DNA of 64,000 nucleotides from an uncultured Acidimicrobiia bacterium (GCA_963835515.1 CAWIFX010000043.1:118261-182260), one strand, 5' to 3'; shown: positions 6,012-42,011, numbered from the stretch's first letter. Notes: generated by a model not told the origin, from the letters alone. Numbers and translations: made by a program.

Positions 6012-6034
6012 CGGGCGCCAGAAACGACAAATAG

Positions 6035-6065: not shown

Positions 6066-6086
6066 TACACCGGAATTACTTGCTGG

Positions 6087-10692: not shown

Positions 10693-10709
10693 CCATACGC
10701 GGAGCTAGC

Positions 10710-11614: not shown

Positions 11615-11735
11615 GTGGTGAGCCTATTAGGTGATTGAGTCCAATGGGTCTTCTGCCTCTGGTCGAAGGCTCCTTGGTCGGGGACCGTGGCACTCGGACC
11701 TAGGAGACCATGACACTGTCCCTCGAGGGAGATAG

Positions 11736-12377: not shown

Positions 12378-12383
12378 ATACGG

Positions 12384-20164: not shown

Positions 20165-20878
20165 GTGATGGGAGCGGCCCATCTCATTCAATCGATCGCG
20201 GTCCTGTTCCTCGCCAACGACTTCTCGCTTCCGGTGGTCGGCTCCTTCCTGTCCGGCCCGCCTGGATCGGGGGATTTCGAGGTTGTCAACCTGTTTGATG
20301 TGCGAGTGGCCTACGGGGTTGCTGGCTTCCTGTGGCTTTCGGCAGCTGCCCATTTCCTCGTGGCGTCGCCGGGTATCAACGATTGGTACAACCGGAATTT
20401 GGCACAACGTCGCAATTACGCTCGATGGATCGAATACTCGATCAGCTCATCGTTGATGGTCGTGCTGATCGCCATGCTCACTGGTATCGCCGAAGTGTCG
20501 GCACTTGTAGTCATCTTTGGCGTGAACGCGTCGATGATTCTCTTCGGATGGCTCATGGAAAAGTATGAGCAGCCCGGCTCGACCAACTGGCTCTCATATT
20601 GGTTCGGAGTTATTGCTGGCCTGTTTCCCTGGCTGGCTATCGGCATCTATCTCTGGACACCTGGGTCGGAGTCGTCACCTCCAGGGTTCGTCTATGCGAT
20701 CTTTGTCTCGCTCTTCGTGTTCTTCAACACGTTTGCGGTGAACATGGTGCTCCAGTACCGCCAGACCGGCAAGTGGCGTGACTACATCTACGGGGAGCGC
20801 GCCTACATCTGGTTGAGCCTGCTCGCTAAGTCAGCCCTCGCCTGGCAGGTATTCGGAGGAACCCTCGCCACCGGGTAG
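20165..20878 (+). CDS. Heliorhodopsin (7-TM retinal-binding protein with inverted topology)
   Basis: 237 aa with 7 TM helices. Matches hallmark heliorhodopsin blocks recalled from HeR 48C12: RW(I/V)EYS(I/L)SSS with the counterion Glu, FGVNASMILFGW, GERAYI(W/V)LSL(L/V)AKSALAWQ(V/I)F with the Schiff-base Lys in TM7, and (P)GFVY(A/G)I. Confidence 0.8.
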   Translation: MMGAAHLIQSIAVLFLANDFSLPVVGSFLSGPPGSGDFEVVNLFDVRVAYGVAGFLWLSAAAHFLVASPGINDWYNRNLAQRRNYARWIEYSISSSLMVVLIAMLTGIAEVSALVVIFGVNASMILFGWLMEKYEQPGSTNWLSYWFGVIAGLFPWLAIGIYLWTPGSESSPPGFVYAIFVSLFVFFNTFAVNMVLQYRQTGKWRDYIYGERAYIWLSLLAKSALAWQVFGGTLATG

Positions 20879-20917: not shown

Positions 20918-21571
20918 ATGGGCGTATTCGAGCTGGATCGGGATGAACAGGGTCGGGGCGTAGCTCCTCAGGAGCTTCGTTGGGCGTTGGCTGGCGGAGC
21001 GCTGGTCGCCATTTTCGGATTCGGAATGATGGCTATCGCCGGTGGTATCTCCTCGTTCGAAGCCCGCAATCTGCTCGACGCAGCCCTTCCAACCATTCGA
21101 TTCCTCGCCTCGACGCTGGTCGCCGCCTCGACAACGATCCTTGCGCTGATGCTGGCGCTCATCGGCATCACGGCCAGCCACGACGCCAACTTCAAACCGG
21201 GATTCTTCAAACGCATACGACAGATCTCGACGCTGTGCATCCTGCTTCTCGCAGGTTCGGCACTGCTGTTGCTGTTCCTGACGGTCCCGATCGACGAGGC
21301 GGAAGGAATACAGCGTCGCTACGAAATCGTCTACTACCTCGTACTGGCCGGGGCAGCTGCCTCAACCGGGATGCTCGTGACGGTCATGCTGATGCTTCGA
21401 TATGCGGTCGAAGGAGTTATCGACGTGTTGACGCCCGGTGCCGACAGTCCGTTCGTGATGGATGAGGAAGACGCCGACGAAGGACACGAAGAAATCTCGG
21501 CGTTGGTCACTGACCCGACCACTCCCGTGGTGAGTGAGGCCGAGCTAGTTAGCGATCGAAACGCGAATTGA
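20918..21571 (+). CDS. Hypothetical polytopic membrane protein (acidic C-terminal tail)
   Basis: 4-5 TM helices. An internal ~75-nt stretch (21170-21245) recurs at 93% identity at 31741-31815. Confidence 0.5.
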   Translation: MGVFELDRDEQGRGVAPQELRWALAGGALVAIFGFGMMAIAGGISSFEARNLLDAALPTIRFLASTLVAASTTILALMLALIGITASHDANFKPGFFKRIRQISTLCILLLAGSALLLLFLTVPIDEAEGIQRRYEIVYYLVLAGAAASTGMLVTVMLMLRYAVEGVIDVLTPGADSPFVMDEEDADEGHEEISALVTDPTTPVVSEAELVSDRNAN

Positions 21572-26886: not shown

Positions 26887-27836
26887 TGGATTGGTATCTG
26901 GACGACGGCGACAGCGAAGGCGCCACGGTCATCCGTCGCGAATTCGTCGATTATCTTCGCCGGCATGCCGACCCGTCCTCCGAGATTGATCTCGCCGCTC
27001 TGGCTTTCGCTGAGCTGGTCAACAACGGAGTGGAACACGCCGGAGGCCCGGTTTGGGTCTCGGTCGACTGGGCAGGTCGTCATCCGATCGTCTCAGTCAA
27101 TGATCTCGGGTCTTCCTTCCAGATGAGCGAGGTTGCAATGCCTGACCCAACCGCGGTCAGGGGACGAGGTCTAGCCATCGCCGCTGATCTGGCCGCCAGG
27201 CTCGAGGTGGCTCAAAAAGCCGGCGGCGGTGCCCGGGTTGAGGCCGAACTCAACGTTGATCGAGGTGACCAGCAGGATCTGGATCCGCCGCGCCGCACCC
27301 GCAACGTGCTCCCTGATTTAGCCGAAGCCGGTCCGGACGGTTTCGGCAGAGAGTCCTTCCTTCGGTCACTGGTGGTCCAAATGGCACAGGGGGTCGAACA
27401 CGCTCTCGGACCCATGGCGGCGGAGTCGGCGGTTGCCCAGGTGGGCGCCGATGTGGGTGGCCAGATGGAGACCGAGTTTCGATCGAGTCACCCCGGGCTT
27501 CGTGAGCTCATGACCCCCACCGAGACTGGCGACTGCTATGTGCGGCTCAAGCAAGCCATCGGTGGTGATTTCTACGTGCTGGAGGCCGACGAGGATCGAA
27601 TCGTTTTGGCCAATCGGGCGTGTCCGTTCGGTGAGGCAGTCCTGCGAGCTCCTGCGCTATGCCGGATGACTTCGAGTGTTTTCGGGGGAATCGCGGCTCG
27701 CAATTTTGGTGAGGCGACCGTGGTGCTTGAGGAGCGGATCGCGGTTGGCGACCCGGCGTGCCGCGTCGTTGTCTACCTCGGCGAGCAACCCGAGATTCCG
27801 CACGGGCATCGCTACCAGGCGCCAGTCCGTACCTAA
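26886..27836 (+). CDS. RsbW-type GHKL ATPase (anti-sigma regulatory factor-like) fused to a C-terminal V4R (4-vinyl-reductase-type small-molecule-binding) domain
   Basis: Intact N-box ELVNNGVEHAGG and a G-box-like region in the N-terminus. The C-terminus (…ANRACPFGEAVLRAPALCRMTSSVFGGIAARNFGEATVVLEERIAVGDPACRVVV…) fits the V4R Cys pattern. Confidence 0.6.
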   Translation: MDWYLDDGDSEGATVIRREFVDYLRRHADPSSEIDLAALAFAELVNNGVEHAGGPVWVSVDWAGRHPIVSVNDLGSSFQMSEVAMPDPTAVRGRGLAIAADLAARLEVAQKAGGGARVEAELNVDRGDQQDLDPPRRTRNVLPDLAEAGPDGFGRESFLRSLVVQMAQGVEHALGPMAAESAVAQVGADVGGQMETEFRSSHPGLRELMTPTETGDCYVRLKQAIGGDFYVLEADEDRIVLANRACPFGEAVLRAPALCRMTSSVFGGIAARNFGEATVVLEERIAVGDPACRVVVYLGEQPEIPHGHRYQAPVRT

Positions 27837-28798
27837 GCCAAGTAGTCTTCGGCGCCTTCCCTCACCGTCGCGTCGACGATCGCCGGACCATCTCCAACGA
27901 CGGCTAGAACAGCTCGCACCAATGATGATGCTGTCGGACTCCCGGCTGCCTCGGATCGGCGCTGTTGCCAGTCTGCCTGGTCGCGGAGAATGGCAGGCTC
28001 GTCGCACAGCAACGCGGCATTGAGGCATCGCAGCATCCAGACACCATCGAGAACCGCCTCGGTGGGCAGGTTCTTGATGGTGTCAGATAGCCGGGCTGCC
28101 AGCCTGTGGATCCGCAGGTCGAGCCATTCAAACCCTTCGGAGCGCTCGTGCGTGACGGGACCGACTGGAGCGGCCGGAACCTTCACAGATTCGATGGCTC
28201 GGCCGAGGTCCCGGATGTCGCGGCCGTATGCGTTGGCTCCCAGCAGTAGGGCGCGTTCGGCGGTCACGGCCGACCCGCCCATCACCACGGGCGTTCCCGA
28301 TTCGCGGGCAGTTGCCGCCATGCGACGAGCGCCAGGCAGGTTGCCGACCATCTGGCAGGACACGGTTATGCATCGGGGTGCCAGCTCGTGCAGAAAGGGG
28401 AGGAGCTGGCCGGGTGGGATCGGACCGTCCAGCGTGACAGTCTCAAAGCCTTGTGAACGGAGAGCTTGGGAAACCATTGAGAGACCCAACGTATGCCACT
28501 CGCCCTCGGCGCTCGTGACGAGAACCTCGCCAGGGGCGGTGGACTCCCGATCCACGTCGAGTAAACCGATCGTCTGCGACGTTATCGCCGTTGCACGATG
28601 CTCCTGGGCAACATTCCAGACGCCGCTTTCCCATTGAGACCCAACCCAATGTTGGGCCGGCGCAAGTAGCAGATCCATCAGCTCCGGTATCGCCATCCCG
28701 CCGGCGAGGGTCTGGTCGACCTGCGCCTTGAATGCCCGTGCGTCGAATCGGTTGAGCGCGTCGATGAGGTCGGTGCGGATGGCTTCGACAGCCGTCAT
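27833..28798 (-). CDS. Stand-alone cobalamin (B12)-binding domain protein, CarH/LitR C-terminal-module-like (no DNA-binding domain)
   Basis: N-terminal four-helix B12-binding-2 cap (…WVGSQWESGVWNVAQEHRATAI…) and a Rossmann B12-binding domain with an E-x-H-x-x-G variant of the DxHxxG motif (EGEWHTLGL). Overlaps the upstream PP2C gene stop by 4 nt. Confidence 0.65.
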   Translation of the reverse strand: MTAVEAIRTDLIDALNRFDARAFKAQVDQTLAGGMAIPELMDLLLAPAQHWVGSQWESGVWNVAQEHRATAITSQTIGLLDVDRESTAPGEVLVTSAEGEWHTLGLSMVSQALRSQGFETVTLDGPIPPGQLLPFLHELAPRCITVSCQMVGNLPGARRMAATARESGTPVVMGGSAVTAERALLLGANAYGRDIRDLGRAIESVKVPAAPVGPVTHERSEGFEWLDLRIHRLAARLSDTIKNLPTEAVLDGVWMLRCLNAALLCDEPAILRDQADWQQRRSEAAGSPTASSLVRAVLAVVGDGPAIVDATVREGAEDYLA

Positions 28799-30459
28799 AA
28801 AGCTGTGATCGCCAGAACGGTGATGTCGTCTTGGGACTTGCCGGCCGACCAGCCGTCAACTGCTGAAGCAATGGCATTCGAGATGGCCTTCGCTCCTGAG
28901 GCCGCCGCTGCGGAAGCGGTCTCGGCCAACCGATCCCGGCCGAACTCCTCTACGCCAAGACGGGCTTCGATGACCCCATCTGAGAACAGAAGCAGGGTAT
29001 CGCCGGGTGACAGTACGCCAGTGGTCGGGATCCACTCGGCGTCATCCATGAAGCCGAGTAGGACGCCGTGTGCATCGATGTCGCGTGTGGTGCCATTCGC
29101 GCAGATCACCATGGGGGCCGGGTGGCCGGCGGATGAGACCGAGTAGCGATGAGTGCCATCAGGGTCGGTGTCGATCTGGGCCAATACCAAGCTCGCGAAC
29201 GGGCGATTGTCCTGGGAACGGAGCATCTGGTTGATCGTACGGATAGTCGTGTCGGGGCAGCTACCGGCCAATGAGGCTGCTTTGACGGCCGAACGCATGA
29301 GTCCGGCCTGGGCAGCCGCGACAATGCCCTTCCCGGTCATATCGCCGATGGCCGCTATCGACCTGGTCGGGGACAGGGCGAAACAATCGTAGAAATCGCC
29401 TCCGAGAAGGGAAAGGTTCGTGGCGGCCTGGTAACGGGCAGAGGTCTCGAAAGATATGGGGGCCTCGAGAATGGTGGGTCGCACGGACGACACCAGTAAA
29501 TTCGTTACCGAAGCCTGTTCTTGAAAGAGCGCTGCATTGTCCAGGGCCACGGCCGCCCGGCGGGTGATGGCCGTGATCAGGGCGAGGGCCCGATCCGACC
29601 AAACTCCATCGTCACGTTCGACGAGGACGCTGCCGATTCTGACGCCTCGAGCCGCGATCGGGACGACCGTTCCGGATGCACTTGGGGATCTCGCCGGGTG
29701 GGGGGTCATCTCGGTGAGTTCGTCGTAGCCGACCTTACCCGATGCGTGGGCCAGTCGGTGCTCGGTAAGTTCCTTGAGCCTGCCCAGGGTCACGAGACGA
29801 CCCTGGTTGTTCGAGACGGCGGTCGCCACCTGTCCAGACAGAGCATCGGTTTGAAGATCGACCGTGCATCGATCCGCCAGGCTGGGTGCGATCAAGCCAG
29901 CCAAACGGTCAAGAATCCGGTCGACATTCAGTGCTCCCGAGAAGCTATCGCTGGCTTCGATGAGAAGAGCCAGATCCTGTTCGGTGGCGGTACGGGCGGC
30001 GTCGGCTGCCCGCTCGGCGATGCGCAGGCGGTCCCGTTCCAGTTCGACAGAGCTGCGTTCCGTGACGTCGTACACGACCCCGTAACCCGCCACGGGGACA
30101 CCATCCTCGACCTCGATGTGGCCTTGACCCTCGACCCACCTCACCACCCCCGACGGGTGGATGATGCGATGCTTGGTCGTGTAGTCCCCTCCGCGTTCGG
30201 CGAGACCCGCAACCAGTCCCGTGACGTCCTCGAGGTCATCGGGATGGATGAGCGCCGAGTATTCCTCGAATGTCCCGGCAAATCCGGTGTCCGTCACCCC
30301 GTAAATGCGCCGGGTGGTTTCGTCCCAGTTCACCTTGCCGGAGGCTGGGTTCCAACTCCACGTTCCGATGCCTGCAGCCGAGAGCAGGGCAGCCAGGTCG
30401 GGTGGTAGACGATTTGAAGGTGGCACGACAAGATCATAGGCGTTAGGCGGAGAGCCCAT
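28795..30459 (-). CDS. PAS-GAF-PP2C (SpoIIE/RsbU/RsbP-like) serine phosphatase
   Basis: N-terminal PAS (…WSWNPASGKVNWDETTRRIYG…), central GAF, and C-terminal PP2C metal-binding blocks (…GGDFYDCF…IGDMTGKG…FSDGVIEA…DDITVLAI…). Confidence 0.8.
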   Translation of the reverse strand: MGSPPNAYDLVVPPSNRLPPDLAALLSAAGIGTWSWNPASGKVNWDETTRRIYGVTDTGFAGTFEEYSALIHPDDLEDVTGLVAGLAERGGDYTTKHRIIHPSGVVRWVEGQGHIEVEDGVPVAGYGVVYDVTERSSVELERDRLRIAERAADAARTATEQDLALLIEASDSFSGALNVDRILDRLAGLIAPSLADRCTVDLQTDALSGQVATAVSNNQGRLVTLGRLKELTEHRLAHASGKVGYDELTEMTPHPARSPSASGTVVPIAARGVRIGSVLVERDDGVWSDRALALITAITRRAAVALDNAALFQEQASVTNLLVSSVRPTILEAPISFETSARYQAATNLSLLGGDFYDCFALSPTRSIAAIGDMTGKGIVAAAQAGLMRSAVKAASLAGSCPDTTIRTINQMLRSQDNRPFASLVLAQIDTDPDGTHRYSVSSAGHPAPMVICANGTTRDIDAHGVLLGFMDDAEWIPTTGVLSPGDTLLLFSDGVIEARLGVEEFGRDRLAETASAAAASGAKAISNAIASAVDGWSAGKSQDDITVLAITAL

Positions 30460-30502
30460 TGCCCGGAACTAGCTATTACGCGCGTTGGTAGTCTGATCTC
30501 TG

Positions 30503-31489
30503 ATGTCGGGCCTATGGGAGAAAATTCAGGAGCGGATCGCGCCGCTGTTGGCCGTCGTGGAACGGTATGGCAGCGATCATGGCGCCCGGTTGGCCGCGTC
30601 GTTGGCCTATCGAGCGGTTTTCGCCCTGGCTCCCTTGCTGCTCGTCGCCGTTTCTGTAGCTGGATTCGTGTATGGGACGGCAGATGCCCAGGCTCGCCTG
30701 GTTGCAGAGATCCAACCGTATGTCGGCGCAGAAGCCTCATCATTGGTTTTTGATTTGCTCGATCAGGCAGCGGCGAGTCGCAACTCGACGGGCATCATCG
30801 GGCTCCTGCTCATGACGTGGACGGCGAGCGCCTTGTTCCTGGAAGCACAGGGCTCGCTCAATCTCATTTTCGGGTCGGATCCGACCCCCAAAGGCGGGGT
30901 AGGGGCGTGGATTCTCAGACGAGCCCTGGCGGTCGCGGCCGCCCTATCGATGGGAGTTGTCCTGCTCGTGGTGATCGGCTCTGGGGCGGCCTGGGGCATG
31001 GTCGAATCGCAGGTTGACCTTGCCGAACCGGTCAAGCAGGTATTGGATTGGCTCACACCCGTCGTGGCATGGCTGGTTCTCGCGGGACTGTTCACGATTG
31101 TCTTCCGGTTCGTCCCGAGTCGCGACATTCCGTGGCGAGGTGCCAGGATTGGTGGAGCAATCACCGCGGTCGGGTTTGCGGTCGCCTCGCTGGTCATCGG
31201 CAGCTATTTCAACCCGGAGCGGTTTACTGGCACCGGCTTTGCCGGTGGTTTCGTACTGATTCTCTTCAGCGTTTACGTACTCGCCCAGGTTGTGTTGTTT
31301 GGCGCCGAAATCATTGATGTGCATCTGATCCATGACGCTCAGGCGCCGGTTGAGGAGGCGGCGGCCCCGTTTGCCCCAACAATGCCAACCACCGCTGCAA
31401 ACGATCCGGGAGCGACGCCGGTCGGATGGTTCGCAGCCGGGCTGGCAGTTGGGGCGTATCTGGTGGCGAGGATTCGGCCCGAGAAATAG
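30503..31489 (+). CDS. YihY/BrkB (ribonuclease BN-like) family membrane protein
   Basis: …SLAYRAVFALAPLLLVAVS… and six TM helices. Its 3' ~250 nt are part of repeat copy A. Confidence 0.8.
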   Translation: MSGLWEKIQERIAPLLAVVERYGSDHGARLAASLAYRAVFALAPLLLVAVSVAGFVYGTADAQARLVAEIQPYVGAEASSLVFDLLDQAAASRNSTGIIGLLLMTWTASALFLEAQGSLNLIFGSDPTPKGGVGAWILRRALAVAAALSMGVVLLVVIGSGAAWGMVESQVDLAEPVKQVLDWLTPVVAWLVLAGLFTIVFRFVPSRDIPWRGARIGGAITAVGFAVASLVIGSYFNPERFTGTGFAGGFVLILFSVYVLAQVVLFGAEIIDVHLIHDAQAPVEEAAAPFAPTMPTTAANDPGATPVGWFAAGLAVGAYLVARIRPEK

Positions 31490-31752
31490 GCTTCCGGCAA
31501 ACCCCGCACTCAAGATTCCCCGGCTGTCAGCCGCAGTTATCTAGATAGCAGACTTTGTCCCAGAACTGGCACCAACTGACGGAACTGTAGAGAAAAGCTG
31601 GGTCATCCGTTCAACCGAACAGAACTTTGTTCGGTTCATGCGCGATATCGGGCTCGGCCTCTCTCCGGTTTTCTTCGGCATTGCGCTAGTGACCGGTGAG
31701 CCTGCCTTCCTATTCCTGGCGGCGCTGGCGGCGCTGTCCGGTATCACGGCCA
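31240..31752. repeat. Direct repeat copy A (~513 bp, ~85% identical to 33869..34390): yihY 3' end plus intergenic region plus the first ~130 nt of the histidine-kinase ORF, fused at 31741-31815 to a ~75-nt fragment 93% identical to 21170-21245
   Basis: Seen by direct alignment of nucleotide strings. For example, …GGCTTTGCCGGTGGTTTCGT(A/T)CTGATTCTCTTCAGCGT… and …GTTCGGTTCATGCGCGAT(A/G)TCGGGCT… are shared. Chimeric ORF 31638..31919 results. Confidence 0.8.
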
Positions 31753-31943
31753 GCCACGACGCCAATTTCAAACCGGGATTCTTCAAGCGGATACGACAGA
31801 TATCGACGCTGTGGAGGCGCGGCGGCCATTTCGTCGACGAGTTCGCCGGTTTCCTGACCCAGATCCTCGACGCGTTCGGACCGGCCGGCTGGCTCTCCTC
31901 TCACCATTACTTTGGCTAGCTATTTTGGACGGCGGGCGAAGGC

Positions 31944-33302
31944 CTAGACGACGCCGTAGGCGAGCATGGCATCGGCGACCTTGACGAAGCCGGCGATGTT
32001 TGCGCCCTTGACATAGTCGATGTGATCGGTTCCTGGTGAACCCCCGTACTCGACACAACGCCCGTGGATCGCGGCCATGATGTCGACGAGGTGCTTCTGG
32101 AGCTCGTCTTCTTTCCATGAGATGCGTGCCGAGTTCTGGCTCATCTCGAGGCCCGACACCGCAACACCACCGGCATTGGCCGCCTTGCCAGGAGCAAACA
32201 GGGTCTGGGCATTCTTGAAGCAGTGCACGCCGTCGAGATCCGTCGGCATATTTGCACCCTCGGACACGGCCTTGACGCCGTTGGCGACAAGCGTTTCGGC
32301 GTCGGCGCCGACGAGCTCGTTCTGGGTTGCGCACGGCAACGCAACGTCGCACGGGACCCCCCACGGGCGCTTTCCCTCGTGGTACTCCGAGCCGCTGAAC
32401 TGCTCGGTGTATTCCTGGATACGGCCGCGCCGTTCGCCCTTGAGAGCCTTGACCCATGCGAGCTTCTCTGCGTCGATCCCGGCGGGGTCATGGATGAAGC
32501 CACCCGAGTCCGAGAGCGTGACGGCGGTGCCGCCGAGGTGGTTGATCTTTTCGACCGCGTGCAATGCGACATTGCCCGAGCCGGAGACGACGCACGTCTT
32601 TCCTTCGACGCTGTCGCCGATATGCGTGAGCATGTTCTCGAGGAAATACACCGCGCCGTGGCCGGTCGCCTCGGTGCGGATGAGGCTGCCGCCGAACTCG
32701 AGGCCCTTGCCGGTCAGCACGCCCGTGAAGTGGTTGGTAATGCGTTTGTACTGCCCGAACATGTAGCCGATCTCTCTTGCCCCGACGCCGATGTCACCGG
32801 CCGGCACATCGATGTCGGCGCCAACATGGCGGTAGAGCTCGGTCATGAACGACTGGCAGAAGCGCATTACCTCGTGGTCGCTCTTGCCGCGGGGATTGAA
32901 GTTCGATCCGCCCTTGCCTCCGCCCATCGGCAAACCCGTGAGGCTGTTCTTGAACGTCTGCTCGAACGCCAGGAACTTGAGCACGCTCTCGGTCACCGAA
33001 GGATGGAAGCGCAGACCGCCCTTGTACGGGCCAATCGCATTGTTGTTCTGCACGCGCCAGCCGCGCTGAACTCGAATGTTGTTGTTGTCGTCTTCCCAGC
33101 AAACCCGGAAACTCACGACCCTGTCCGGCTCGGCGATGCGGCGAAGGATCTGGTACTCGTGGTACTCGTCCTTGTCCAATGTGTAGTCGAACACATCTTC
33201 GGCAACTTCTTGCACGGACTGCACGAATTCGGGCTGGCCCGGATTCCGCTTGCGCACCCCTTCGATGAACTGCGCGAGATCCGCATGCTCAGTAGCGGTC
33301 AT
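31944..33302 (-). CDS. gdhA: NADP-specific glutamate dehydrogenase
   Basis: Glu/Leu/Phe/Val dehydrogenase signature (…LPMGGGKGGSNFNPRGKSD…) and NAD(P)-binding GxGNVA (SGSGNVALHA). Start at internal ATG with AAGGGGGAA RBS; a GTG 60 nt upstream is an alternative. Confidence 0.9.
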   Translation of the reverse strand: MTATEHADLAQFIEGVRKRNPGQPEFVQSVQEVAEDVFDYTLDKDEYHEYQILRRIAEPDRVVSFRVCWEDDNNNIRVQRGWRVQNNNAIGPYKGGLRFHPSVTESVLKFLAFEQTFKNSLTGLPMGGGKGGSNFNPRGKSDHEVMRFCQSFMTELYRHVGADIDVPAGDIGVGAREIGYMFGQYKRITNHFTGVLTGKGLEFGGSLIRTEATGHGAVYFLENMLTHIGDSVEGKTCVVSGSGNVALHAVEKINHLGGTAVTLSDSGGFIHDPAGIDAEKLAWVKALKGERRGRIQEYTEQFSGSEYHEGKRPWGVPCDVALPCATQNELVGADAETLVANGVKAVSEGANMPTDLDGVHCFKNAQTLFAPGKAANAGGVAVSGLEMSQNSARISWKEDELQKHLVDIMAAIHGRCVEYGGSPGTDHIDYVKGANIAGFVKVADAMLAYGVV

Positions 33303-33448
33303 TAGTTCCCCCTTCGAGACCACGGACGTACCCGCAATGGCTGCCGACAGTACCAGTCGCACCTCACCACCGCATCGGGCCGACTCTCCAGAGGGTCAGT
33401 TCGAGGATCGTAGATGGCTCCGAGTATCGGTATTCCACACAGAGTACG

Positions 33449-33868
33449 TTGCATGTAATGGCCGCGCCGATCCCCGAGGATGAGGCAGATCGGCTAGTCG
33501 CGCTCTATCGGCTCGACCTTCTGGATCAACCCGGGAATGAGAACTTCGATCGGCTGACACGCATCCTTGCCCATGTCCTCGATGTTCCGATTGCGTTGTT
33601 GTCGCTCGTCGACGATGACCGTCTGTGGGGTGGTGGTTCGAGATATGGCCCCACCGCCACCGGGACACCGCGACGCGACGCCTTCTGCGCCCATGCGATC
33701 CTCGATTCCCAAGTGTTGGTCGTCGGCGATGCACAGCTCGATGTTCGTTTCCGGGACAACCCCCCTGGTGACCGGTGCGCCGGCGATTCGGTTTTATGCC
33801 GGCGCACCAATCAGCGCACCAAGTGGTCACCGGCTCGGGAGCGGCTTGGGGAATGGTGGAATCACGTC
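33449..33868 (+). pseudogene. GAF-domain gene remnant, frameshifted and truncated at the repeat boundary
   Basis: …RLVALYRLDLLDQPGNENFDRLTRILAHVLDVPIALLSLVDDDRLW…FCAHAIL…VVGDA…DVRFRDNP… then a frame slip (PLVTGAPAIRFYAGAPI continues in the +1 frame), ending inside repeat copy B. Confidence 0.45.
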
Positions 33869-34390
33869 TTGAAGCACAGGCTTTGCCGGTGGTTTCGTTC
33901 TGATTCTCTTCAGCGTGTACGTTCTCGCCCACGTCGTGTTGTTCGGTGCCGAGATTATCGACGTGCATCTGGTCCCTGACCCCCGAGCATCGGCCGACGA
34001 TGCTGCGGCATCGTTCGTCCCGACGGACGTGCCGGAAAGTCCGAGCGAGCCGGCCGCCACAACGGTCGGATGGTTCGCAGCCGGGCTGGCGGTTGGAGCC
34101 TATCTGGTCGCAAGGATTCGGCCCCGGGGATAATCTGATCGGGCAAAGGTGGCGCTCAAGATTGCCCCGACGTCAGCCGAAGTTATATAAATGGCAGACT
34201 TTGTCCGGGATTCGGCGTTAACTGACAGAGCTGGAGCGAAAAGCTCGGTGATCCGTTTGACCGAAGAGAGATTTGTTCGGTTCATGCGCGATGTCGGGCT
34301 TGGCCTGTCTCCGGTCTTTCTTGGCATCGCACTGGCGACTGGCGAGCCTGCCTTTCTATTCCTGGCGGCTTTGGCCGCGTTGTCAGGTGC
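33869..34390. repeat. Direct repeat copy B (~522 bp), containing an orphan yihY 3' fragment (ORF 33915..34133) and running into the 5' end of the hybrid histidine kinase gene
   Basis: Aligns with 31240..31752 and encodes …VLFGAEIIDVHL…GWFAAGLAVGAYLVARIRP…, nearly identical to the YihY C-terminus. Confidence 0.8.
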
Positions 34391-37300
34391 CATGGCCTTT
34401 CTTCAGATTCGTATTGGACGGGTTCGAGCCGCGGTCCTGATGATCGTGGTCGTGACGCTGGCAGCTGCACAGACGTTTACGCTCGACCCGGCGGTACTTG
34501 AAGCGTTATGGGTGGCGATCGCGGCCCTGGGTGCCATCGGCAGTTCCTTTGTCTCTTCCCGGAGGCGATGGAGCTATCACACGTATGTCGGGCTCATCTG
34601 GATTGCCCAACCGCTGTTTCATCGCCATGACGAAAAAGCCTTCTTTATGGCCGTCCAGCTTTGCGTGTATTTACTCATCGCACTTGGTCTCCGGCAAACA
34701 CTCCGGTCGTTGGAGTCCACCGAGCACCGCTATGAGAATCTGTTTCTCAAGACGCCGATCGCCACGTTCCAGGAGGACTTCTCCCAGGCGGCTCGGTGGC
34801 TTGAAAGTCTCCGAGCCGACGGTGTCGAGGATCTGAAGGCTCATCTCGATGACAATCCTGAGCTGGTCAGGTACGCGTTCGGGCTCATTGGCGTTGCTGC
34901 CGTCAACGACGCGACCGTCGAGCTTCTCGGGGCCACGAGTGCCGACCAGTTGACCGGCACCCTTAACCCCGATCACTACCGATCCGAGACGCACGACAGC
35001 GTCGTCGCCCAGTTGCTCGGCATATGGAATCGGCAGGAATCTGTCGCCACTGAGATGGCCGGGCAAACCTTGCAGGGCGAAGATATCGACTGCGTTCTGT
35101 ATTGGACCGCGCCGCGCACCCGAGCCGGGTTTGACTATTCGAAAGTGGTCGTCTCGCTCGTAGACGTCTCGCCGCTCAAGGCGTCTGAGCGCGAGGCCAA
35201 GATGCAACTACGCCTGGCCAAACAAGAGCGTCGGCTGCAGATTATCGCTTCCAACGCGACCGACCTTCTGTTCATTCTGGGCAGTGATGGGAAGGTCTCC
35301 TGGATATCGGCGTCTGTTACCCGTCTGCTGGGCTATGAGATTCCCGAGATGATCGGTAAAGCGTTCCACGAGTTTGTTCACGCCGAGGATGCGGCAGCCA
35401 TCGTGGGTGCCGGGGTTGCGCTTGCCTCCGGTGACACCAGCGATCCCGTGGTACACCGGGTGCGTCACAACGATGGCTCATGGCACTGTTTTGAAGCGAC
35501 GGCTCGGAACATGGTCGATGATCAGTTTGTTGAAGGCTATGTCATTTCGTCGCGTGACATCACGGATCGGGTGGGCGCCGAGGAAGCTTTGCGTGACAGC
35601 GAGGCGCGTTTCCGGTTGATGGCCGAAAACTCCACCGACATGATCTCGAGCCACGATCCATCCGGGGTATACCGGTACGTATCGCCGGCTTCGATGCGTC
35701 TGCTGGGGCGGTCCCCCGAGGAGATCGTGGGGCTAACTCCTTATGATCTCGCCCACCCCGATGATGTAGCAGGCATGACTGCCGCTCATCAGAGCGCTTT
35801 TGAAGCCGGCAAGGACATCGTCACTGTCGACTATCGCATGGCGCATGCAGACGGATCATGGCAATGGTTTGCCTCCAACTTCAAGATGATCTTTGAGGAG
35901 GGGAATCAGGAATTGGTGCGGCTGCACGCTTCGACGAGAAACATTTCCGAGCGCAAACAAGCCGAGGAAGCCCTCGTTGAAGCCAAGGTGGCCGCCGAGC
36001 GCGCCACCGAAACAAAATCTCAGTTTCTCGCCAACGTCAGCCACGAGATCCGCACCCCGATGAATGCGATCCTCGGTATGACCGAGTTGGCTCTCGGCAC
36101 CGAAGTAACGGCCGAACAGCGCGAATACCTGGTTACGACGCGGAGTTCGGCCGACGCTCTGATCACCCTCGTCAACGACCTGCTGGACATCGCAAAAATC
36201 GAGGCCGGGAAGCTCGAGTTCGAGGCGATACCGTTTGAGCTTCGTGACACGCTCAGCGACACATTGAGAACCCTCGGTGTGAAAGCTTCTGAGAAGGGTA
36301 TCGCTCTTACCCAGGATGTTGCTCCATCTGTGCCGGCTGTCCTGGTCGGCGATCCGGGACGGGTGCGGCAGATCCTCTTCAACCTCGTCGGAAATGCCCT
36401 CAAGTTCACCCACGAGGGGAGCGTCCGTGTCGGGGTCGAGGTAGTCGAAGAGTCGGATCAGGCAGTTGACCTGCATATCTGGGTGGAAGACACCGGGATT
36501 GGCATCCCACCGGACGGGCTCGAATCCATTTTCGAGGCGTTCTCGCAAGCGGAAGGTTCGACCGCCCGGCGGTTTGGTGGGACCGGTCTTGGCCTATCGA
36601 TTTCGACCCAACTCGTGAAGATGATGCAAGGCAAGTTATGGGTTGAGAGCGAAGTCGGCGTTGGCAGTACTTTCCACTTCACGGCCAAGCTTGCGCTAGC
36701 TCCGCTCGAAAGCGAATCTGAATCGGATGCCGTGGGCAGCGCGACCACCGTGCTGGTCATTGCAGACAGCGAAGAAGCCCGCCGCGGCACCACCGAGATG
36801 CTTCGGCTGGGAGGCTTGCGCTCGATTGTTGCAAACGACCTGGCTGGCGCTCTCGACCTAATCTTCGAGGCCGGTCATGCCCACCCGAGACCGGGCGCAG
36901 TTGTTATCGATGTGCGGGCCGGGACCGCCGAGCTCGCCAGCCGGCTCGTCAAAGAACCCACCTTCAAGGACTTGCCCATTGTGGTGCTTACGCCAACCGG
37001 CGAACGCGGCGACGCAGCCGTCTATCGGGCGGCGGGTGCTGCGGGCTACCTGTCAAAGCCGTTGGGGGCGGGTGAACTCAGCGACACGATTGCGGCCGTT
37101 TCGGGCGGCACCCGACCGGACGGCGAATTAGTCACCCGTCATTGGTTGCGGGCCCGACGACCCCGGATGAACTTGTTGGTGGTCGATGACAGTGCGACCA
37201 ATCGGACCATGGTGACCCGGCTCCTCGAGAAACGGGGTCATACGGTGACCGTTGCCGAGAATGGCCGGGACGCCGTTGAGTTGGTGCTGGCCATCAAGTT

Positions 37301-37916
37301 CGATGCAGTGCTGATGGACGTCGAAATGCCCGAGATGGACGGACTCGAAGCAACCTCCACGATCCGCGGTCAGGAGACGGGTCACATCCCGATCATCGGA
37401 TTGACCGGACGTGCGTCTGAGGAAGACCGGCGGACCTGTCTCGATAGCGGCATGGACAACGTGGTGTCGAAACCGTTCCGACCCGAGGCGCTGTTCACGG
37501 CGGTGGAGCAGGTCTTCAATGGACTCATTGACATTGATTCGATTCCGAAACGCCAGGGACGCCCGGCTGATCTGCTTGACCGATTTGAAGCGCTCGAACG
37601 ACTCGGCGGAATGCCCGATCTGGCCGTCGAGTTGATGCAGGAGTTCCAGAAGGAGTACCCGGTCGATCTCGAGTTGATTCGCGAGGCCTTTGCCGCCCGG
37701 GACTTTCAGCGCGTGTCGCGAGTCGCCCATCGAATGAAGGGCAGTCTTGGGCTGCTTTCGGCAGGCCCTGCCGCCCAGGCAGCCGCACTGCTGGAACGGC
37801 ACGCGGCAGATGGCACTGGGCACGCCGAAACGGCGTGGAAGCTCCTGCAAGAAGAGATGGAAAGCCTCGAGCCGGTAATTGTCAGACTGGCCGAATCGGC
37901 CGGAGCTTGGGCTTAG
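34191..37916 (+). CDS. Hybrid sensor histidine kinase: N-terminal membrane domain, three PAS domains, HisKA/HATPase_c, two receiver domains, C-terminal HPt
   Basis: H-box SHEIRTPMNAILGM, N/G-boxes (NLVGNALKFT, GGTGLGLSIS), REC Asp blocks (LVVDDSATNR…VLMDVEMPEMDG) and HPt (…RVAHRMKGSLGLL…). The true start may be the internal Met at ~34284 because the upstream part lies in repeated sequence. Confidence 0.85.
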   Translation: MADFVRDSALTDRAGAKSSVIRLTEERFVRFMRDVGLGLSPVFLGIALATGEPAFLFLAALAALSGAMAFLQIRIGRVRAAVLMIVVVTLAAAQTFTLDPAVLEALWVAIAALGAIGSSFVSSRRRWSYHTYVGLIWIAQPLFHRHDEKAFFMAVQLCVYLLIALGLRQTLRSLESTEHRYENLFLKTPIATFQEDFSQAARWLESLRADGVEDLKAHLDDNPELVRYAFGLIGVAAVNDATVELLGATSADQLTGTLNPDHYRSETHDSVVAQLLGIWNRQESVATEMAGQTLQGEDIDCVLYWTAPRTRAGFDYSKVVVSLVDVSPLKASEREAKMQLRLAKQERRLQIIASNATDLLFILGSDGKVSWISASVTRLLGYEIPEMIGKAFHEFVHAEDAAAIVGAGVALASGDTSDPVVHRVRHNDGSWHCFEATARNMVDDQFVEGYVISSRDITDRVGAEEALRDSEARFRLMAENSTDMISSHDPSGVYRYVSPASMRLLGRSPEEIVGLTPYDLAHPDDVAGMTAAHQSAFEAGKDIVTVDYRMAHADGSWQWFASNFKMIFEEGNQELVRLHASTRNISERKQAEEALVEAKVAAERATETKSQFLANVSHEIRTPMNAILGMTELALGTEVTAEQREYLVTTRSSADALITLVNDLLDIAKIEAGKLEFEAIPFELRDTLSDTLRTLGVKASEKGIALTQDVAPSVPAVLVGDPGRVRQILFNLVGNALKFTHEGSVRVGVEVVEESDQAVDLHIWVEDTGIGIPPDGLESIFEAFSQAEGSTARRFGGTGLGLSISTQLVKMMQGKLWVESEVGVGSTFHFTAKLALAPLESESESDAVGSATTVLVIADSEEARRGTTEMLRLGGLRSIVANDLAGALDLIFEAGHAHPRPGAVVIDVRAGTAELASRLVKEPTFKDLPIVVLTPTGERGDAAVYRAAGAAGYLSKPLGAGELSDTIAAVSGGTRPDGELVTRHWLRARRPRMNLLVVDDSATNRTMVTRLLEKRGHTVTVAENGRDAVELVLAIKFDAVLMDVEMPEMDGLEATSTIRGQETGHIPIIGLTGRASEEDRRTCLDSGMDNVVSKPFRPEALFTAVEQVFNGLIDIDSIPKRQGRPADLLDRFEALERLGGMPDLAVELMQEFQKEYPVDLELIREAFAARDFQRVSRVAHRMKGSLGLLSAGPAAQAAALLERHAADGTGHAETAWKLLQEEMESLEPVIVRLAESAGAWA

Positions 37917-39801: not shown

Positions 39802-39889
39802 AGGCATCCTCCGCAACATGTACAGCTGGCGGCCTCGTCAGCCGTTGGTTCTCTGACGCAGCCAAGCAGGCGGATGGTTCCGCCGCTGG

Positions 39890-40760
39890 CTAGTAACGCC
39901 TCTTTTTGAACTGCCCGATGATGTCGACCACGGCTTGGCCGACCGTGTCCTGGTTGGTGAGTTCCGGGTGGGCGATACCTGTCAGTGCCCGACCGAGGCC
40001 CCGTCGGATCTGCCCGATCCAGCTCCGGGCCGCGATGACTCCTGCACCCACCTGGACGATGAGCGCACCGAGGCCTGCCGCCAAACCGACCAGCATTCCG
40101 ACGCCGATACCAAGACCGATGAACAGTCCCAATCCGACGACCGCCCCGGACGCGGCTAGACCGAGCCCGGTCCAATAGGCCGGGGCGGTGCTGGCTCGCA
40201 GCGTGATCACGTGCTGGTTGTCGGTGATGGTTTCGACCCGGTGGGCGACTTTGACGCTGCGGAGTGCTCCGGTGCCCTGAGCAATCTTGAGACCCTGGCG
40301 CAATGAGTTCACCGGGCTGGCGCGCTTGGTCCAGACCGTCGTCTGCGGAGTGGTCCTGGTCACTTGAAGCCCTTCGTGACGGGTCATCCAGTCGGCGATG
40401 TTCGTTTCGGCTTCCGGGCGAGTGGCGGTCACGAGGATTTGATCGGAGATCTGTTTGGGTCCGAATACCCGTTCAGCCAAGCCGTCTGGCGGGACATGGT
40501 CGGGCCGGGAAAGTTCTTCTGCGAGAGCTTTCGCCACGATGTCGCGATGCACGCCGAGTTCGTCTGCGACCCGATTGAGCGTCTCGACATCGACCCGGGC
40601 ATCGTCGTAGTCGGAGTCTGTCTGTAGTTCGATCGCGCGCCGCAAAATCCGATCAGCGCGCGCTGGCGACAGTTTCTGCAGGCGGTCAGATACGTCGTCG
40701 CTGGGGTTGGTTCGGCGTTGAGATGGCCGCGGCGGTTGCTGTTGAGAGGACTCCACGATT
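39890..40760 (-). CDS. Hypothetical membrane protein (Gly-zipper TM pair, C-terminal); start uncertain
   Basis: ORF is open 39890..40939 but the upstream part overlaps the next gene. The coding region plausibly begins near 40760. Confidence 0.4.
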
Positions 40761-40796
40761 TCAAGTATCGCGCAGATCGCAGTTTGTGATCGGCGG

Positions 40797-42011
40797 TTAG
40801 AAGAACATTCCCGGATGGGGGCTTGGCAACAGGAAGGCCTCGTCGAGTTGAGCAAGCAGTCCAGCTGGTCCTCGTAGCTGGTCGGTGAGGGCCAGACTCG
40901 AAGCAGGATGCACGCCAAACCACATCCGACTGAACGCATTGATGGAGGCCGTCAGGGTCGGGATGGATCCATCTACGCCAGGCTCGATGAACGAGTCCTT
41001 ACCAACGTTGATCCGGTATTGACCGGATAGTCCGATTCGGTTGCCGTGTTCGTTCAAAGGATCTGACAGGTCGAGGTTGAACGTGATCTCGTCGCCTGGC
41101 CAGGAACGCTGCGCCACCACATGGCCCAGATCGAGGATGCGAAGTTGCCACCACGCCAGGGCTTGATGCCGGGCCTCATGTGGTGACTTGGCTGTCTGGA
41201 TTCGTTGTCGGATCGGATGCCGGAGCAGATCGTGGAGTTGTATCTCGGGTGGTTCGACCATCTTGACGCTGCGGATCTGGTCACCGAATTCGCGAACCAA
41301 CGCCAGGAGTTCAAGGATCTGTTCCGGAGCCTCATACGACATGAGGATTATGGCGAGCGGCCCCGAATATTCCCGCTTGACCGCCCAGATGAAATGGGTG
41401 AGCCGATCTCCCTCGTAGTAGCCCCATCCCGCCCCGTCGGTGTCCGTGGACAACTCGGCTTTGGTGTAGCCAGGTGTATTGATGGTCACGCCTCCGTGCG
41501 ACCGTTTCCTGCGGAGATGGGCGGCGTGGATCTCCTCCCAATCGTCGGCGCCCAAACGGCTCGGAGTTCGATAGGGAGCGTCGACAGTCAAGGAACTCGG
41601 ATCAAAGACCATCTGGTTCATGTACGCCGAGGTGCCGAATCCGAGCCGGTCATAGAAGCCTTGCTCGAACATCCCGAGCGCCGCGACATGGACACCGCGT
41701 TCGAGCGCATTCGCCACGACCGAGGCCGTGGTCCCGGTTGCCAGGCCTTGTTTGCGTCCGACCAGACTTGTGGTGACGGCGGTGACGCAGGCAAGATCCA
41801 GATCGTTGTCGAGGTAGCGGATGGTCCCGTCGTGTACCGCCGCCAGGGCTTCGGCCTCACCGTTGATCAAGCCGACGGCGACGTCGGCTTCCTCGACGTA
41901 CCATTCCATGGCCGCCTGCTCTTCGGGGCTGGTCGCCCAACCGATTTCCTTCCACATCCGCTGGATGTGAGGCAGGTCTGATCCTTGATACGCTCGAATG
42001 GTCACGGGCAA
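40797..42011 (-). CDS. Eis-like GNAT N-acetyltransferase with C-terminal SCP2-like domain
   Basis: ~400-aa tripartite architecture: GNAT (…GLATGTTASVV…), a second GNAT-like lobe, and an SCP2-fold C-terminus ending in aromatic residues. Matches the Eis (enhanced intracellular survival) family. Confidence 0.6.
   Translation of the reverse strand: MPVTIRAYQGSDLPHIQRMWKEIGWATSPEEQAAMEWYVEEADVAVGLINGEAEALAAVHDGTIRYLDNDLDLACVTAVTTSLVGRKQGLATGTTASVVANALERGVHVAALGMFEQGFYDRLGFGTSAYMNQMVFDPSSLTVDAPYRTPSRLGADDWEEIHAAHLRRKRSHGGVTINTPGYTKAELSTDTDGAGWGYYEGDRLTHFIWAVKREYSGPLAIILMSYEAPEQILELLALVREFGDQIRSVKMVEPPEIQLHDLLRHPIRQRIQTAKSPHEARHQALAWWQLRILDLGHVVAQRSWPGDEITFNLDLSDPLNEHGNRIGLSGQYRINVGKDSFIEPGVDGSIPTLTASINAFSRMWFGVHPASSLALTDQLRGPAGLLAQLDEAFLLPSPHPGMFF

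What the first reader, a model, noticed from the sequence alone, without database searches (positions are those of the whole stretch)
31240..34390. Mosaic ~0.5-kb direct repeat flanking gdhA, creating chimeric gene fragments
Copy A (31240-31752) and copy B (33869-34390) are ~85% identical. Each spans the yihY 3' end, the intergenic region and the first ~130 nt of the histidine-kinase reading frame. Copy A belongs to the intact yihY; copy B belongs to the intact kinase. Between them sit gdhA (opposite strand) and a frameshifted GAF-domain remnant. This is too long for a transposon target-site duplication. It looks like integration of a gdhA-bearing segment by homologous recombination (Campbell-type) or a duplication followed by insertion, followed by divergence. 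It also means the annotated 5' end of the large hybrid kinase lies in duplicated sequence.
Basis: seen in the sequence. Interest (0 to 1): 0.6.

Follow-up and report, generated by a model that had tools for sequence, protein, structure and literature searches.

The report
gdhA insertion scar with allelic flanking repeats
A 2.1-kb patchwork of DNA carrying an intact glutamate dehydrogenase gene sits between two genes that are direct neighbours in all related genomes, and the half-kilobase repeats on either side are two different lineages' versions of the same sequence; this is an ordinary recombination scar that can be read in unusual detail.

Summary
The repeat is real. Copy A is 31230-31751 and copy B is 33874-34397: 522 nt, 77-78% identical (not 85%), E 6e-118. 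Each copy covers the yihY 3' end, a 57-nt spacer and the first 69 kinase codons.

Five related uncultured Acidimicrobiia contigs have yihY directly next to the kinase and hold this sequence once. The 2.1-kb insert is therefore derived and, so far, unique to this genome.

The insert is a patchwork:
- a 71-nt piece of a membrane-protein gene (X) that lies 10.6 kb upstream
- 130 nt of unknown origin
- an intact gdhA
- a truncated, frameshifted GAF gene

Both resolvable junctions lie in short imperfect homologies.

The copies are not diverged duplicates. Copy A groups with another organism's single copy (100% bootstrap) and never with copy B. Their differences are mostly synonymous (16:3 in kinase codons 32-66), and neither dead fragment shows excess private mutations. 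They look like two alleles from different lineages, joined recently.

Best reading: an alternative allele of the locus, X'-gdhA-'yihY-kinase, came in laterally. It was joined by one homologous exchange and one illegitimate junction (HFIR or single-crossover type). This is a known kind of event and of modest interest.

The parts
20918..21571 (+). Gene X: a 217-aa membrane protein with no Pfam family, next to a heliorhodopsin gene. Its codons 84-107 are the homologue of the fragment found at junction J1.
   Evidence: ORF and translation; no Pfam hit. Window 21163-21237 matches 31739-31813 at 70/75.
30503..31489 (+). Intact yihY/BrkB-family membrane protein gene (328 aa).
   Evidence: Pfam PF03631, E 8.8e-35. 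Full-length matches of 82-94% aa to relatives of 327-329 aa.
31230..31751 (+). Repeat copy A: yihY codons 243-328, a 57-nt spacer and kinase codons 1-69. Its allele type is close to that of relative L010.
   Evidence: 85.4% identical to L010 against 77.0% to copy B; A+L010 has 100% bootstrap. A run of L010-like informative sites covers 30694-31625.
31545..31751 (+). Dead 5' fragment of the kinase gene (69 codons) inside copy A. The conserved start codon is mutated from ATG to ATA.
   Evidence: The peptide is still conserved, and its differences from copy B are mostly synonymous.
31739..31751 (.). Junction J1: kinase codons 66-69 joined to X codon 84 within a short imperfect homology. The window reads GGTATCACGGCC, the kinase GGTGCCATGGCC and X GGCATCACGGCC.
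   Evidence: Alignment; sequence. About 25 nt of patchy similarity between the two transmembrane-helix codings lies upstream of the core.
31743..31813 (+). S2: fragment of gene X (codons 84-107) in the same orientation as X. It is an allelic variant, not a decayed copy of the resident X.
   Evidence: It differs from window X at 5 of 75 sites and from L001 X at 5 of 75, all synonymous. The encoded peptide is identical in the window, L001 and L012.
31638..31919 (+). Chimeric 93-aa ORF: kinase codons 32-69, then X codons 84-107, then 35 codons of unknown origin. It is probably a by-product of the rearrangement.
   Evidence: The only library match is itself (P0260).
31814..31943 (.). 130 nt of unknown origin between the X fragment and the gdhA stop codon. 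It may be the 3' end of a gene that was convergent with gdhA in the source genome. J3 is at 31813/31814.
   Evidence: No similarity to the 11 kb upstream, to the relatives or to 1.84 billion representative proteins.
31944..33302 (-). Intact NADP-type glutamate dehydrogenase gene gdhA (452 aa from the ATG at 33302).
   Evidence: Pfam PF00208 and PF02812. The best non-self homologues are 85% aa over the full length. GC3 is 0.81 against a window mean of 0.706, sd 0.039. Only the coding sequence matches homologous loci at the DNA level, at 77-80%.
33458..33843 (+). Remnant of a stand-alone GAF-domain gene: about 128 of about 165 codons. It has a +1 frameshift in a C6 run at 33760-33765, substitutions at conserved residues and no C-terminus.
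   Evidence: The best homologue is 65% identical.
33823..33871 (+). S4: yihY piece (codons 156-172, ..VVTGSGAAWGMVESRL). Its first roughly 20 nt (33823-33843) can also be read as the end of the GAF homology, which makes this junction J2, again in a short imperfect homology.
   Evidence: Local alignment score 47 against 21.5 +/- 2.5 for shuffles; protein alignment; sequence.
33874..34397 (+). Repeat copy B: a dead yihY 3' fragment (codons 243-328, stop at 34131-34133), the spacer and the live kinase 5' end. Its allele type is closest to relative L001.
   Evidence: A run of L001-like informative sites covers about 34050-34595.
34191..37916 (+). Intact hybrid sensor histidine kinase (1241 aa; PAS x2, HisKA, HATPase, REC x2, Hpt).
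   Evidence: The orthologue in L001 is 1242 aa. A significant change of affinity from L001-like to L010-like occurs at about 34595, codon 135.

Best explanation
This is the scar of a lateral, homology-assisted illegitimate recombination event, not an element with a function of its own.

Shown:
- The ancestral order is heliorhodopsin, X, a 9.7-kb regulatory/ABC cluster, yihY, kinase.
- The window keeps that standard arrangement up to kinase codon 69.
- There it is joined (J1) to X codons 84-107, 130 nt of unknown DNA, gdhA, a truncated GAF gene, yihY codons 156-172 and 243-328, and then the whole kinase.
- This right-hand part keeps the ancestral order and orientation (X, then yihY, then kinase).

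Inferred:
- The right-hand part is a second, alternative allele of the same locus. In it, the stretch between X codon 107 and yihY codon 156 had been replaced by about 2 kb of unrelated DNA carrying gdhA.
- A fragment of that allele from a related lineage entered the cell. It recombined homologously on one side, inside the yihY-3'/kinase-5' region; the candidate crossover is at about 34595.
- Its other end was joined illegitimately at a 12-nt imperfect microhomology in kinase codons 66-69.
- Because this illegitimate joint fell inside the region shared by both alleles, that region is now present twice, once from each lineage. That is the 522-nt 'repeat'.

Consequences:
- yihY keeps its own 3' end.
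- The kinase keeps its own upstream region and start codon.
- gdhA is gained with its own upstream region.
- The kinase 5' piece, the yihY 3' piece, the X piece and the GAF gene are left as dead fragments.

Variants I cannot separate from this are the mirror-image version (homologous crossover at about 30694 and illegitimate joint at J2) and single-crossover integration of a circularised fragment.
For: 1. Relatives L001, L002, L010, L012 and L013 all have yihY directly followed by the kinase. In each, the left-flank and right-flank alignments of the window overlap on the same 510-522 nt.
2. J1 joins a downstream gene to a gene 10.6 kb upstream in the same orientation. Everything right of J1 is collinear with the ancestral order.
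3. The copies are allelic. A+L010 has 100% bootstrap and A+B 0%. Kinase codons 32-66 differ by 16 synonymous and 3 non-synonymous changes (pS 0.52, pN 0.04), the same pattern as between functional orthologues. P = 4e-4 against the neutral-decay mix. All 5 differences between the X fragment and the resident X are synonymous. Neither dead fragment has excess singletons.
4. Informative sites show significant changes of phylogenetic affinity at about 30694 and about 34595 on either side of the insert (0 of 300 permutations reached the observed value, so p < 0.004). The flanks are mosaics in general, so these lineages exchange DNA by homologous recombination.
5. Both resolvable junctions lie in short imperfect homologies.
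6. The gdhA/GAF segment has no counterpart elsewhere in the window or in the relatives. No protein in 5.8 billion is more than 85% (gdhA) or 65% (GAF) identical apart from the window's own gdhA. gdhA has the highest GC3 in the window.
7. The interval between heliorhodopsin and yihY is variable among lineages. L002 holds 1.9 kb of different genes there.
8. In the E. coli experiments of PMC3240628, integration with one-sided homology mostly gave duplications of 109-950 bp of the homologous segment flanking the insert.
Against: - The postulated alternative allele (X'-gdhA-'yihY-kinase without J1) was not found in any collection. The nearest gdhA is 85% aa.
- The direction of the event cannot be decided. 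Each version explains one of the two breakpoints and leaves the other as older mosaicism.
- The last ~125 nt of copy A are not L010-like (75% to L010, 79% to L001, 81% to copy B). This needs an extra small mosaic patch.
- Classical HFIR usually deletes recipient DNA rather than duplicating it.
- The tests rest on short segments (35 codons, 75 nt, 522 nt).
- No reads were available, so the junctions are not verified on single molecules.
Confidence: 0.55

Rival explanations
1. In-situ event followed by allelic overwriting. A tandem duplication arose within this lineage, either 0.8 kb with captured filler DNA or 10.6 kb from X to kinase codon 69 with its interior later replaced. It could have formed by microhomology-mediated template switching or by unequal sister-strand joining. 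Ordinary homologous recombination with divergent lineages then overwrote one or both copies, and the resident X gene as well.
For: - J1 has exactly the form of a tandem-duplication join point, downstream to upstream in the same orientation at a microhomology.
- Short templated pieces from nearby genes (71 nt of X, 49 nt of yihY) are typical of template switching.
- Homologous recombination among these lineages is clearly frequent.
Against: - It needs at least two or three further, well-placed recombination events after a recent rearrangement. One crossover would have to fall inside the last ~120 nt of copy A.
- Even the last 114 nt of the two copies differ by 19%, almost all of it synonymous.
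- The X fragment already looks like a normal foreign allele, with at most one private change.
- Neither dead fragment has excess private mutations, so there has been little time for such overwriting.
Confidence: 0.22
2. One reading: a duplication, or Campbell integration of identical sequence, in this genome, followed by slow divergence of the two copies to the present 77%.
For: The geometry fits: a direct repeat flanks an insert, the outer parts belong to intact genes and the inner parts are dead fragments.
Against: - Copy A and copy B are never sisters (0 of 500 bootstraps), and copy A groups with L010.
- The divergence is 16 synonymous to 3 non-synonymous in a fragment that would have been non-functional throughout.
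- Singleton counts are no higher than in live orthologues.
- Five relatives, including one with 94% aa identity in yihY, lack the insert. The event is therefore younger than the divergence between the copies.
Confidence: 0.04
3. Assembly or library artefact. The contig comes from a metagenome (relatives are MAGs), and two co-occurring strains plus an unrelated gdhA fragment could have been stitched together by a chimeric read or a mis-join.
For: - The two sides of the insert have different closest relatives.
- The source could not be identified or its reads inspected. The window's own gdhA is recorded on a single 182-kb contig from NCBI/ENA.
- The GAF frameshift lies in a homopolymer, which hints at error-prone reads.
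Against: - The junctions share only 4-12 nt of imperfect identity, too little for k-mer or overlap joins.
- Three separate junctions plus an internal 211-nt deletion and a mutated start codon in one fragment are signs of real history.
- The whole right part is collinear with the ancestral gene order, which a random chimera would not give.
- Mosaic affinity occurs all along the flanks, not only at the insert.
Confidence: 0.08
4. Strict Campbell-type single crossover. A small circle carrying yihY'(156-end), the spacer, kinase(1-69), X', gdhA and GAF' recombined once with the resident yihY-kinase region.
For: - It gives exactly this geometry.
- In E. coli, most products of one-sided-homology substrates were such single-crossover duplications of 109-950 bp (PMC3240628).
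- Copy A switches from L010-like to L001-like at about 31625. That could be the crossover.
Against: - The reciprocal switch expected in copy B at the matching position (about 34271) is not seen. Copy B stays L001-like to 34595.
- The L010-like tract of copy A begins at 30694, left of the repeated segment.
- The insert holds no replicon, integrase or plasmid gene.
- The circle itself would still need three illegitimate junctions.
Confidence: 0.11

Closest known systems
Homology-facilitated illegitimate recombination (HFIR): de Vries & Wackernagel 2002, Prudhomme et al. 2002 and Meier & Wackernagel 2003 (as cited in PMC5361080); in E. coli conjugation, PMC3240628
   Same: Foreign DNA is integrated next to a homologous anchor. 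There is one homologous exchange and one illegitimate joint at a short GC-rich microhomology, and no dedicated recombinase is involved. Here J1 has a GGCC core within a 9/12 match, and the affinity breakpoints at about 34595 or 30694 are candidate homologous crossovers.
   Different: Textbook HFIR deletes recipient DNA between the anchor and the joint. Here the joint lies inside the anchor, so 522 nt is kept twice. The event is inferred from a natural genome rather than observed, and the uptake route (transformation, conjugation or other) is unknown.
Single-crossover duplications seen with one-sided-homology substrates in E. coli (PMC3240628)
   Same: A duplication of part of the homologous segment (109-950 bp in that study) flanks the inserted DNA as direct repeats. 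The size range and geometry match the 522-nt (originally at least 784-nt) repeat here.
   Different: Those were plasmid circles in the laboratory, with identical homology. Here the copies differ by 23%, no plasmid functions are present, and the reciprocal mosaic expected of a single crossover is not evident.
Orphan 3' fragments and immunity-gene arrays at T6SS/Rhs loci, explained by HFIR-like displacement (PMC5361080)
   Same: An incoming allele is stacked next to the resident one instead of replacing it. This leaves repeated gene ends whose copies group with other strains' alleles rather than with each other, and the paper uses the same phylogenetic argument against duplication.
   Different: No toxin-immunity logic or selection for retained immunity applies here. 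The genes are a membrane protein, a sensor kinase and a metabolic enzyme. It is a single event, not an array.
Tandem duplication join points formed at microhomologies
   Same: J1 fuses a downstream sequence (kinase codon 69) to an upstream one (X codon 84) in the same orientation at a microhomology. The second unit is collinear with the first.
   Different: The two units are different alleles. The second (2.65 kb) has 9.7 kb replaced by 2 kb of unrelated DNA, and the shared parts are 77-93% identical rather than identical.

Membership tests
HFIR product | An illegitimate joint at a short (about 3-12 nt), often GC-rich microhomology at one end of the inserted DNA | tested here: met
   At J1 the window reads GGTATCACGGCC, the kinase GGTGCCATGGCC and X GGCATCACGGCC, with a perfect GGCC core. 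J2 has about 20 nt readable as both GAF and yihY.
HFIR product | A homologous crossover (anchor) at the other end, visible as a donor/recipient switch | tested here: inconclusive
   Significant affinity breakpoints occur at about 30694 and about 34595 (0 of 300 permutations). The flanks are mosaic in general, so neither breakpoint can be tied to this event.
HFIR product | Recipient DNA between the anchor and the illegitimate joint is deleted | tested here: not met
   Nothing is missing relative to the relatives. Instead 522 nt, plus a 49-nt piece, is present twice.
HFIR product | Arises from linear DNA taken up by transformation or conjugation | not testable with these tools
   There is no information on competence or on the donor molecule.
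Campbell-type (single-crossover) integration | Direct repeats equal to the shared homologous segment flank the insert | tested here: met
   The outer parts are continuous with intact yihY and kinase genes.
Campbell-type (single-crossover) integration | A reciprocal donor/resident mosaic of the two copies around one crossover point | tested here: not met
   Copy A switches at about 31625, but copy B shows no matching switch at about 34271 and stays L001-like to 34595. The power of this test is limited.
Campbell-type (single-crossover) integration | The insert derives from a circular replicon or element (rep, integrase or attachment site) | tested here: not met
   Only gdhA and gene fragments are present. 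There is no integrase, transposase, tRNA or Rfam hit.
Transposon insertion with target-site duplication | A short (2-14 bp) identical duplication, terminal inverted repeats and a transposase | tested here: not met
   The repeat is 522 nt and 77% identical. No terminal inverted repeats lie at the insert ends and no transposase domain was found.
In-situ tandem duplication | The join point links a downstream sequence to an upstream one in the same orientation | tested here: met
   Kinase codon 69 is joined to X codon 84, and X lies 10.6 kb upstream on the same strand.
In-situ tandem duplication | The copies are each other's closest relatives, and the non-functional copy evolves neutrally | tested here: not met
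   A+B has 0% bootstrap and A+L010 100%. Differences are 16 synonymous to 3 non-synonymous. There are no excess singletons.

The most novel reading that the evidence does not exclude
The locus may be a natural example of how alternative 'island alleles' get stacked in tandem instead of replacing each other in uncultured Acidimicrobiia, giving a way for islands to grow by accretion. The event may also have had a regulatory result. The duplicated kinase upstream region and 5' end in copy A now point into the 3' end of gdhA. They could drive an antisense transcript or the 93-aa chimeric membrane peptide, which would tie gdhA expression to whatever signal controls the kinase.
Probability: 0.08. 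Interest if true: 0.5.

Novelty: new member of a known kind. Interest (0 to 1): 0.3.

Why it matters
The case shows that a diverged direct repeat flanking an insert need not be an old duplication. Here the two copies are alleles from different lineages, so their 23% divergence says nothing about the age of the event. For annotation, the 93-aa ORF, the GAF ORF and the yihY 3' ORF are fragments, while the kinase start at 34191 is genuine. For biology, the locus documents gain of an intact gdhA by illegitimate, homology-assisted recombination in an uncultured actinobacterial lineage that also shows dense homologous-recombination mosaics. It is a clear natural footprint of a process known mostly from laboratory experiments, not a new mechanism.

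Tried and rejected
- **Source genome.** Exact look-ups of the window's yihY, the 472-aa gdhA call and the 93-aa chimeric ORF found no record. The source contig and its reads could not be reached.
- **Metagenome scan with yihY.** It returned only the same contig as L002.
- **Origin of the gdhA-GAF segment.** The contexts of the nearest gdhA homologues are Sulf_transp/Pyr_redox, an IS-rich region, and an Ilumatobacter cox cluster. The contexts of the nearest GAF homologues are an MS channel with a response regulator, and GGDEF. None shows gdhA next to GAF, and no flanking DNA matches.
- **Origin of the 130 nt at 31814-31943.** A search of 1.84 billion representative proteins with its reading frame found only the window's own ORF.
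- **Further remnants of the upstream 11 kb inside the insert.** None scored above the shuffled controls.
- **Step change in identity at the insert.** I first looked for a simple step in identity to L001 at the insertion point. The profile is too variable for that. The informative-site analysis replaced it.
- **Integrative element or tRNA target.** No tRNA and no Rfam hit.
- **Promoter/terminator scan of the insert.** Nothing above chance.
- **Conserved hairpin in each copy (31613-31635, 34260-34282).** I take this to be coding sequence (..TEE.FVRF..), because it is not kept as a hairpin in L002.

Full report
**Observation**

The reported repeat is real.
- blastn of 30400-32000 against 33300-35000 gives one alignment, 31230-31751 with 33874-34397: 412/530 identical, 14 gap columns, E 6e-118.
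- The repeat finder recovers the same pair as three ungapped blocks at spacing 2644-2646.
- MAFFT gives 403/522 = 77.2%. The identity is therefore 77-78%, not about 85%.

- intact yihY/BrkB, 30503-31489
- gdhA on the minus strand, 31944-33302 (452 aa, full length against homologues)
- a GAF N-terminal remnant from 33458
- an intact 1241-aa hybrid kinase, 34191-37916

The kinase reading frame starts at the conserved ATG at 34191. Between it and the second ATG, six orthologues have no indels or stops and differ mostly at third positions. The repeat therefore holds 86 yihY codons, a 57-nt spacer and 69 kinase codons. In copy A the start codon reads ATA.

**Comparative evidence**

yihY relatives were found in uncultured Acidimicrobiia:
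- L001: MAG contig CAWKAG010000070
- L002 (the same contig as L006): JAOUMT010000030
- L010, L011, L012 and L013: Logan assemblies

In L001, L002, L010, L012 and L013 the window's left flank aligns up to 31741-31751. The right flank aligns from 33874-33876 onward. Both alignments overlap on the same 510-522 nt of the relative. The kinase directly follows yihY in the gene calls. L011 ends too early to be informative.

yihY-kinase adjacency is therefore ancestral, and the 2122 nt between the copies is an insertion seen only here. This includes the closest relative, which is 94% identical in yihY protein.

**Anatomy of the insert**

1. Window 31739-31813 matches an internal piece (codons 84-107) of a 217-aa membrane-protein gene, X (20918-21571). 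X lies 10.6 kb upstream on the same strand. The piece also matches X in L001, L012 and L013.
2. Junction J1 lies in a 12-nt imperfect homology. The window reads GGTATCACGGCC, the kinase GGTGCCATGGCC and X GGCATCACGGCC.
3. 31814-31943 has no detectable relative anywhere. In frame it ends at a stop codon 24 nt from the gdhA stop, so it may be the tail of a gene that was convergent with gdhA in the source.
4. gdhA is intact.
5. The GAF gene is the first ~128 of about 165 codons of a stand-alone GAF protein; the best homologue is 65% identical. It has a +1 frameshift in a C6 run, changes at conserved residues and no C-terminus.
6. 33823-33871 is a further yihY piece (codons 156-172, AAWGMVES motif). 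Its local alignment score is 47, against 21.5 +/- 2.5 for shuffles. Its first ~20 nt can also be read as the end of the GAF homology, which makes this junction J2.
7. Between that piece and copy B, 211 nt of yihY is missing, and the deletion is out of frame.

The insert has no transposase, integrase, tRNA or Rfam family. No other gdhA or GAF copy occurs in the window or in the relatives' loci.

**The copies are alleles, not diverged duplicates**

- *Tree.* In a seven-sequence alignment of the 522 nt, copy A is 85.4% identical to L010 but 77.0% to copy B. Copy B is closest to L001 (81.9%). A+L010 has 100% bootstrap and A+B has 0 of 500.
- *Kinase fragment.* In kinase codons 32-66, which are non-functional in copy A, the copies differ by 16 synonymous and 3 non-synonymous changes (pS 0.52, pN 0.04). 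Pairs of live orthologues show the same pattern. If copy A had drifted neutrally since a duplication, about 44% of differences should be synonymous. The observed 16 of 19 has P = 4e-4.
- *yihY fragment.* The dead yihY fragment in copy B has pN/pS of 0.13-0.27 against live orthologues.
- *Private changes.* Neither fragment has more private substitutions than the live orthologues do.
- *X fragment.* It differs from the resident X at five sites, all synonymous. Its peptide is identical in the window, L001 and L012, and it has at most one private change.

Almost all of the divergence therefore arose while these sequences were parts of working genes in separate lineages. They came together recently.

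**Mosaic flanks**

Identity to each relative changes every few hundred bases. I scored sites where L010 and L001 differ and the window matches one of them.
- Left side: L001-like from about 30000 to 30690, L010-like from 30694 to 31625, then mixed to L001-like up to 31751.
- Right side: mixed from 33875 to 34050, L001-like from 34050 to 34595, then L010-like to 35100.
- Both main breakpoints are significant (0 of 300 permutations reached the observed value).

These lineages clearly exchange DNA by homologous recombination.

**Interpretation**

Everything right of J1 keeps the ancestral order and orientation: X codons 84-107, unrelated DNA with gdhA, yihY codons 156-172 and 243-328, then the kinase. 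I read it as a second, alternative allele of the locus. In that allele the 9.7-kb interval between X and yihY had been replaced by about 2 kb carrying gdhA. That interval is variable in any case; L002 holds different genes there.

The window is then the standard allele up to kinase codon 69, joined at J1 to the alternative allele. The most economical route is a laterally acquired fragment of the alternative allele. It recombined homologously in the kinase (about 34595), and its other end was joined illegitimately at the J1 microhomology. This is homology-facilitated illegitimate recombination with the joint inside the anchor, so the shared region is kept twice.

Two variants fit about equally well: the mirror-image version (crossover at about 30694, illegitimate joint at J2), and a single crossover with a circularised fragment. 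Laboratory work in E. coli found that one-sided-homology substrates mostly gave exactly such duplications of 109-950 bp (PMC3240628). Stacked alleles that group with other strains rather than with each other have been explained the same way at Vibrio T6SS loci (PMC5361080).

**Rivals**

- *In-situ duplication or template switch, later overwritten by recombination.* This is possible but needs several further well-placed events in a short time.
- *Slow divergence of an in-situ duplicate.* Contradicted.
- *Assembly chimera.* Unlikely. The junctions share only 4-12 nt, there are three of them plus an internal deletion and a mutated start codon, and the structure is collinear with the ancestral order. 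Without reads it cannot be excluded.

**Origin of gdhA**

The origin is undetermined.
- The best non-self hits are 85% aa, from unnamed metagenome proteins and one alphaproteobacterial MAG. Ilumatobacter-type proteins are 83%.
- At the DNA level an Ilumatobacter locus is closest, at 79.7%.
- gdhA has the highest GC3 in the window: 0.81 against 0.706 +/- 0.039.
- No close orthologue from the relatives' lineages is in the protein collection.
- One homologue sits in an IS-rich region.

**Verdict**

This is a well-resolved natural example of a known kind of recombination scar, of modest interest.

Noticed in passing
window 20165-20878 (+): A heliorhodopsin gene (Pfam PF18761, E 6e-99) lies directly upstream of gene X. 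Between them and yihY lies a cluster of STAS, anti-sigma-kinase-like, sigma-factor, ABC-transporter, MetOD1, B12-binding-domain and PAS-PP2C genes. This could be a light- or stress-sensing neighbourhood. The cluster from X to the PAS-PP2C gene is absent from L002.
   Followed up: partly
window 39876-41475: A 1.6-kb tract is 98-99% identical to relative L001, while neighbouring sequence is 85-94%. It covers a 349-aa ORF with no Pfam family (39890-40939, minus strand) and the start of a GNAT/SCP2 gene. It is either a very recent exchange between the two lineages or an unusually constrained gene.
   Followed up: partly
window 34160-34215 and 31515-31570; relatives: The AT-rich motif GAAGTTATATAAATGGCAGACTTTGTC around the kinase start is strongly conserved in all relatives of this GC-rich group. 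An upstream GCGCTCAAGATT box is conserved too. It could be a promoter or leaderless-start signal. Copy A keeps the motif except for the ATG-to-ATA change.
   Followed up: no
L014 and L015 (ENA contigs ctg125378 and ctg457611), 1-13359: A gdhA homologue (84% aa) sits among at least six transposase or recombinase genes (IS3/rve, DDE_Tnp_1, IS21, IS110, resolvase). Genes of this gdhA clade can therefore lie in mobile contexts.
   Followed up: no
window 28512-28911 and 31312-31711 against L001: Identity to L001 falls locally to about 70% inside otherwise 80-90% identical genes: the boundary between the B12-binding-domain gene (27833-28798) and the 3' end of the PAS-PP2C gene (28795-30459), and the yihY C-terminal tail. 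The yihY tail (codons ~275-305) is hypervariable in all lineages, at 44-61% nt identity.
   Followed up: partly
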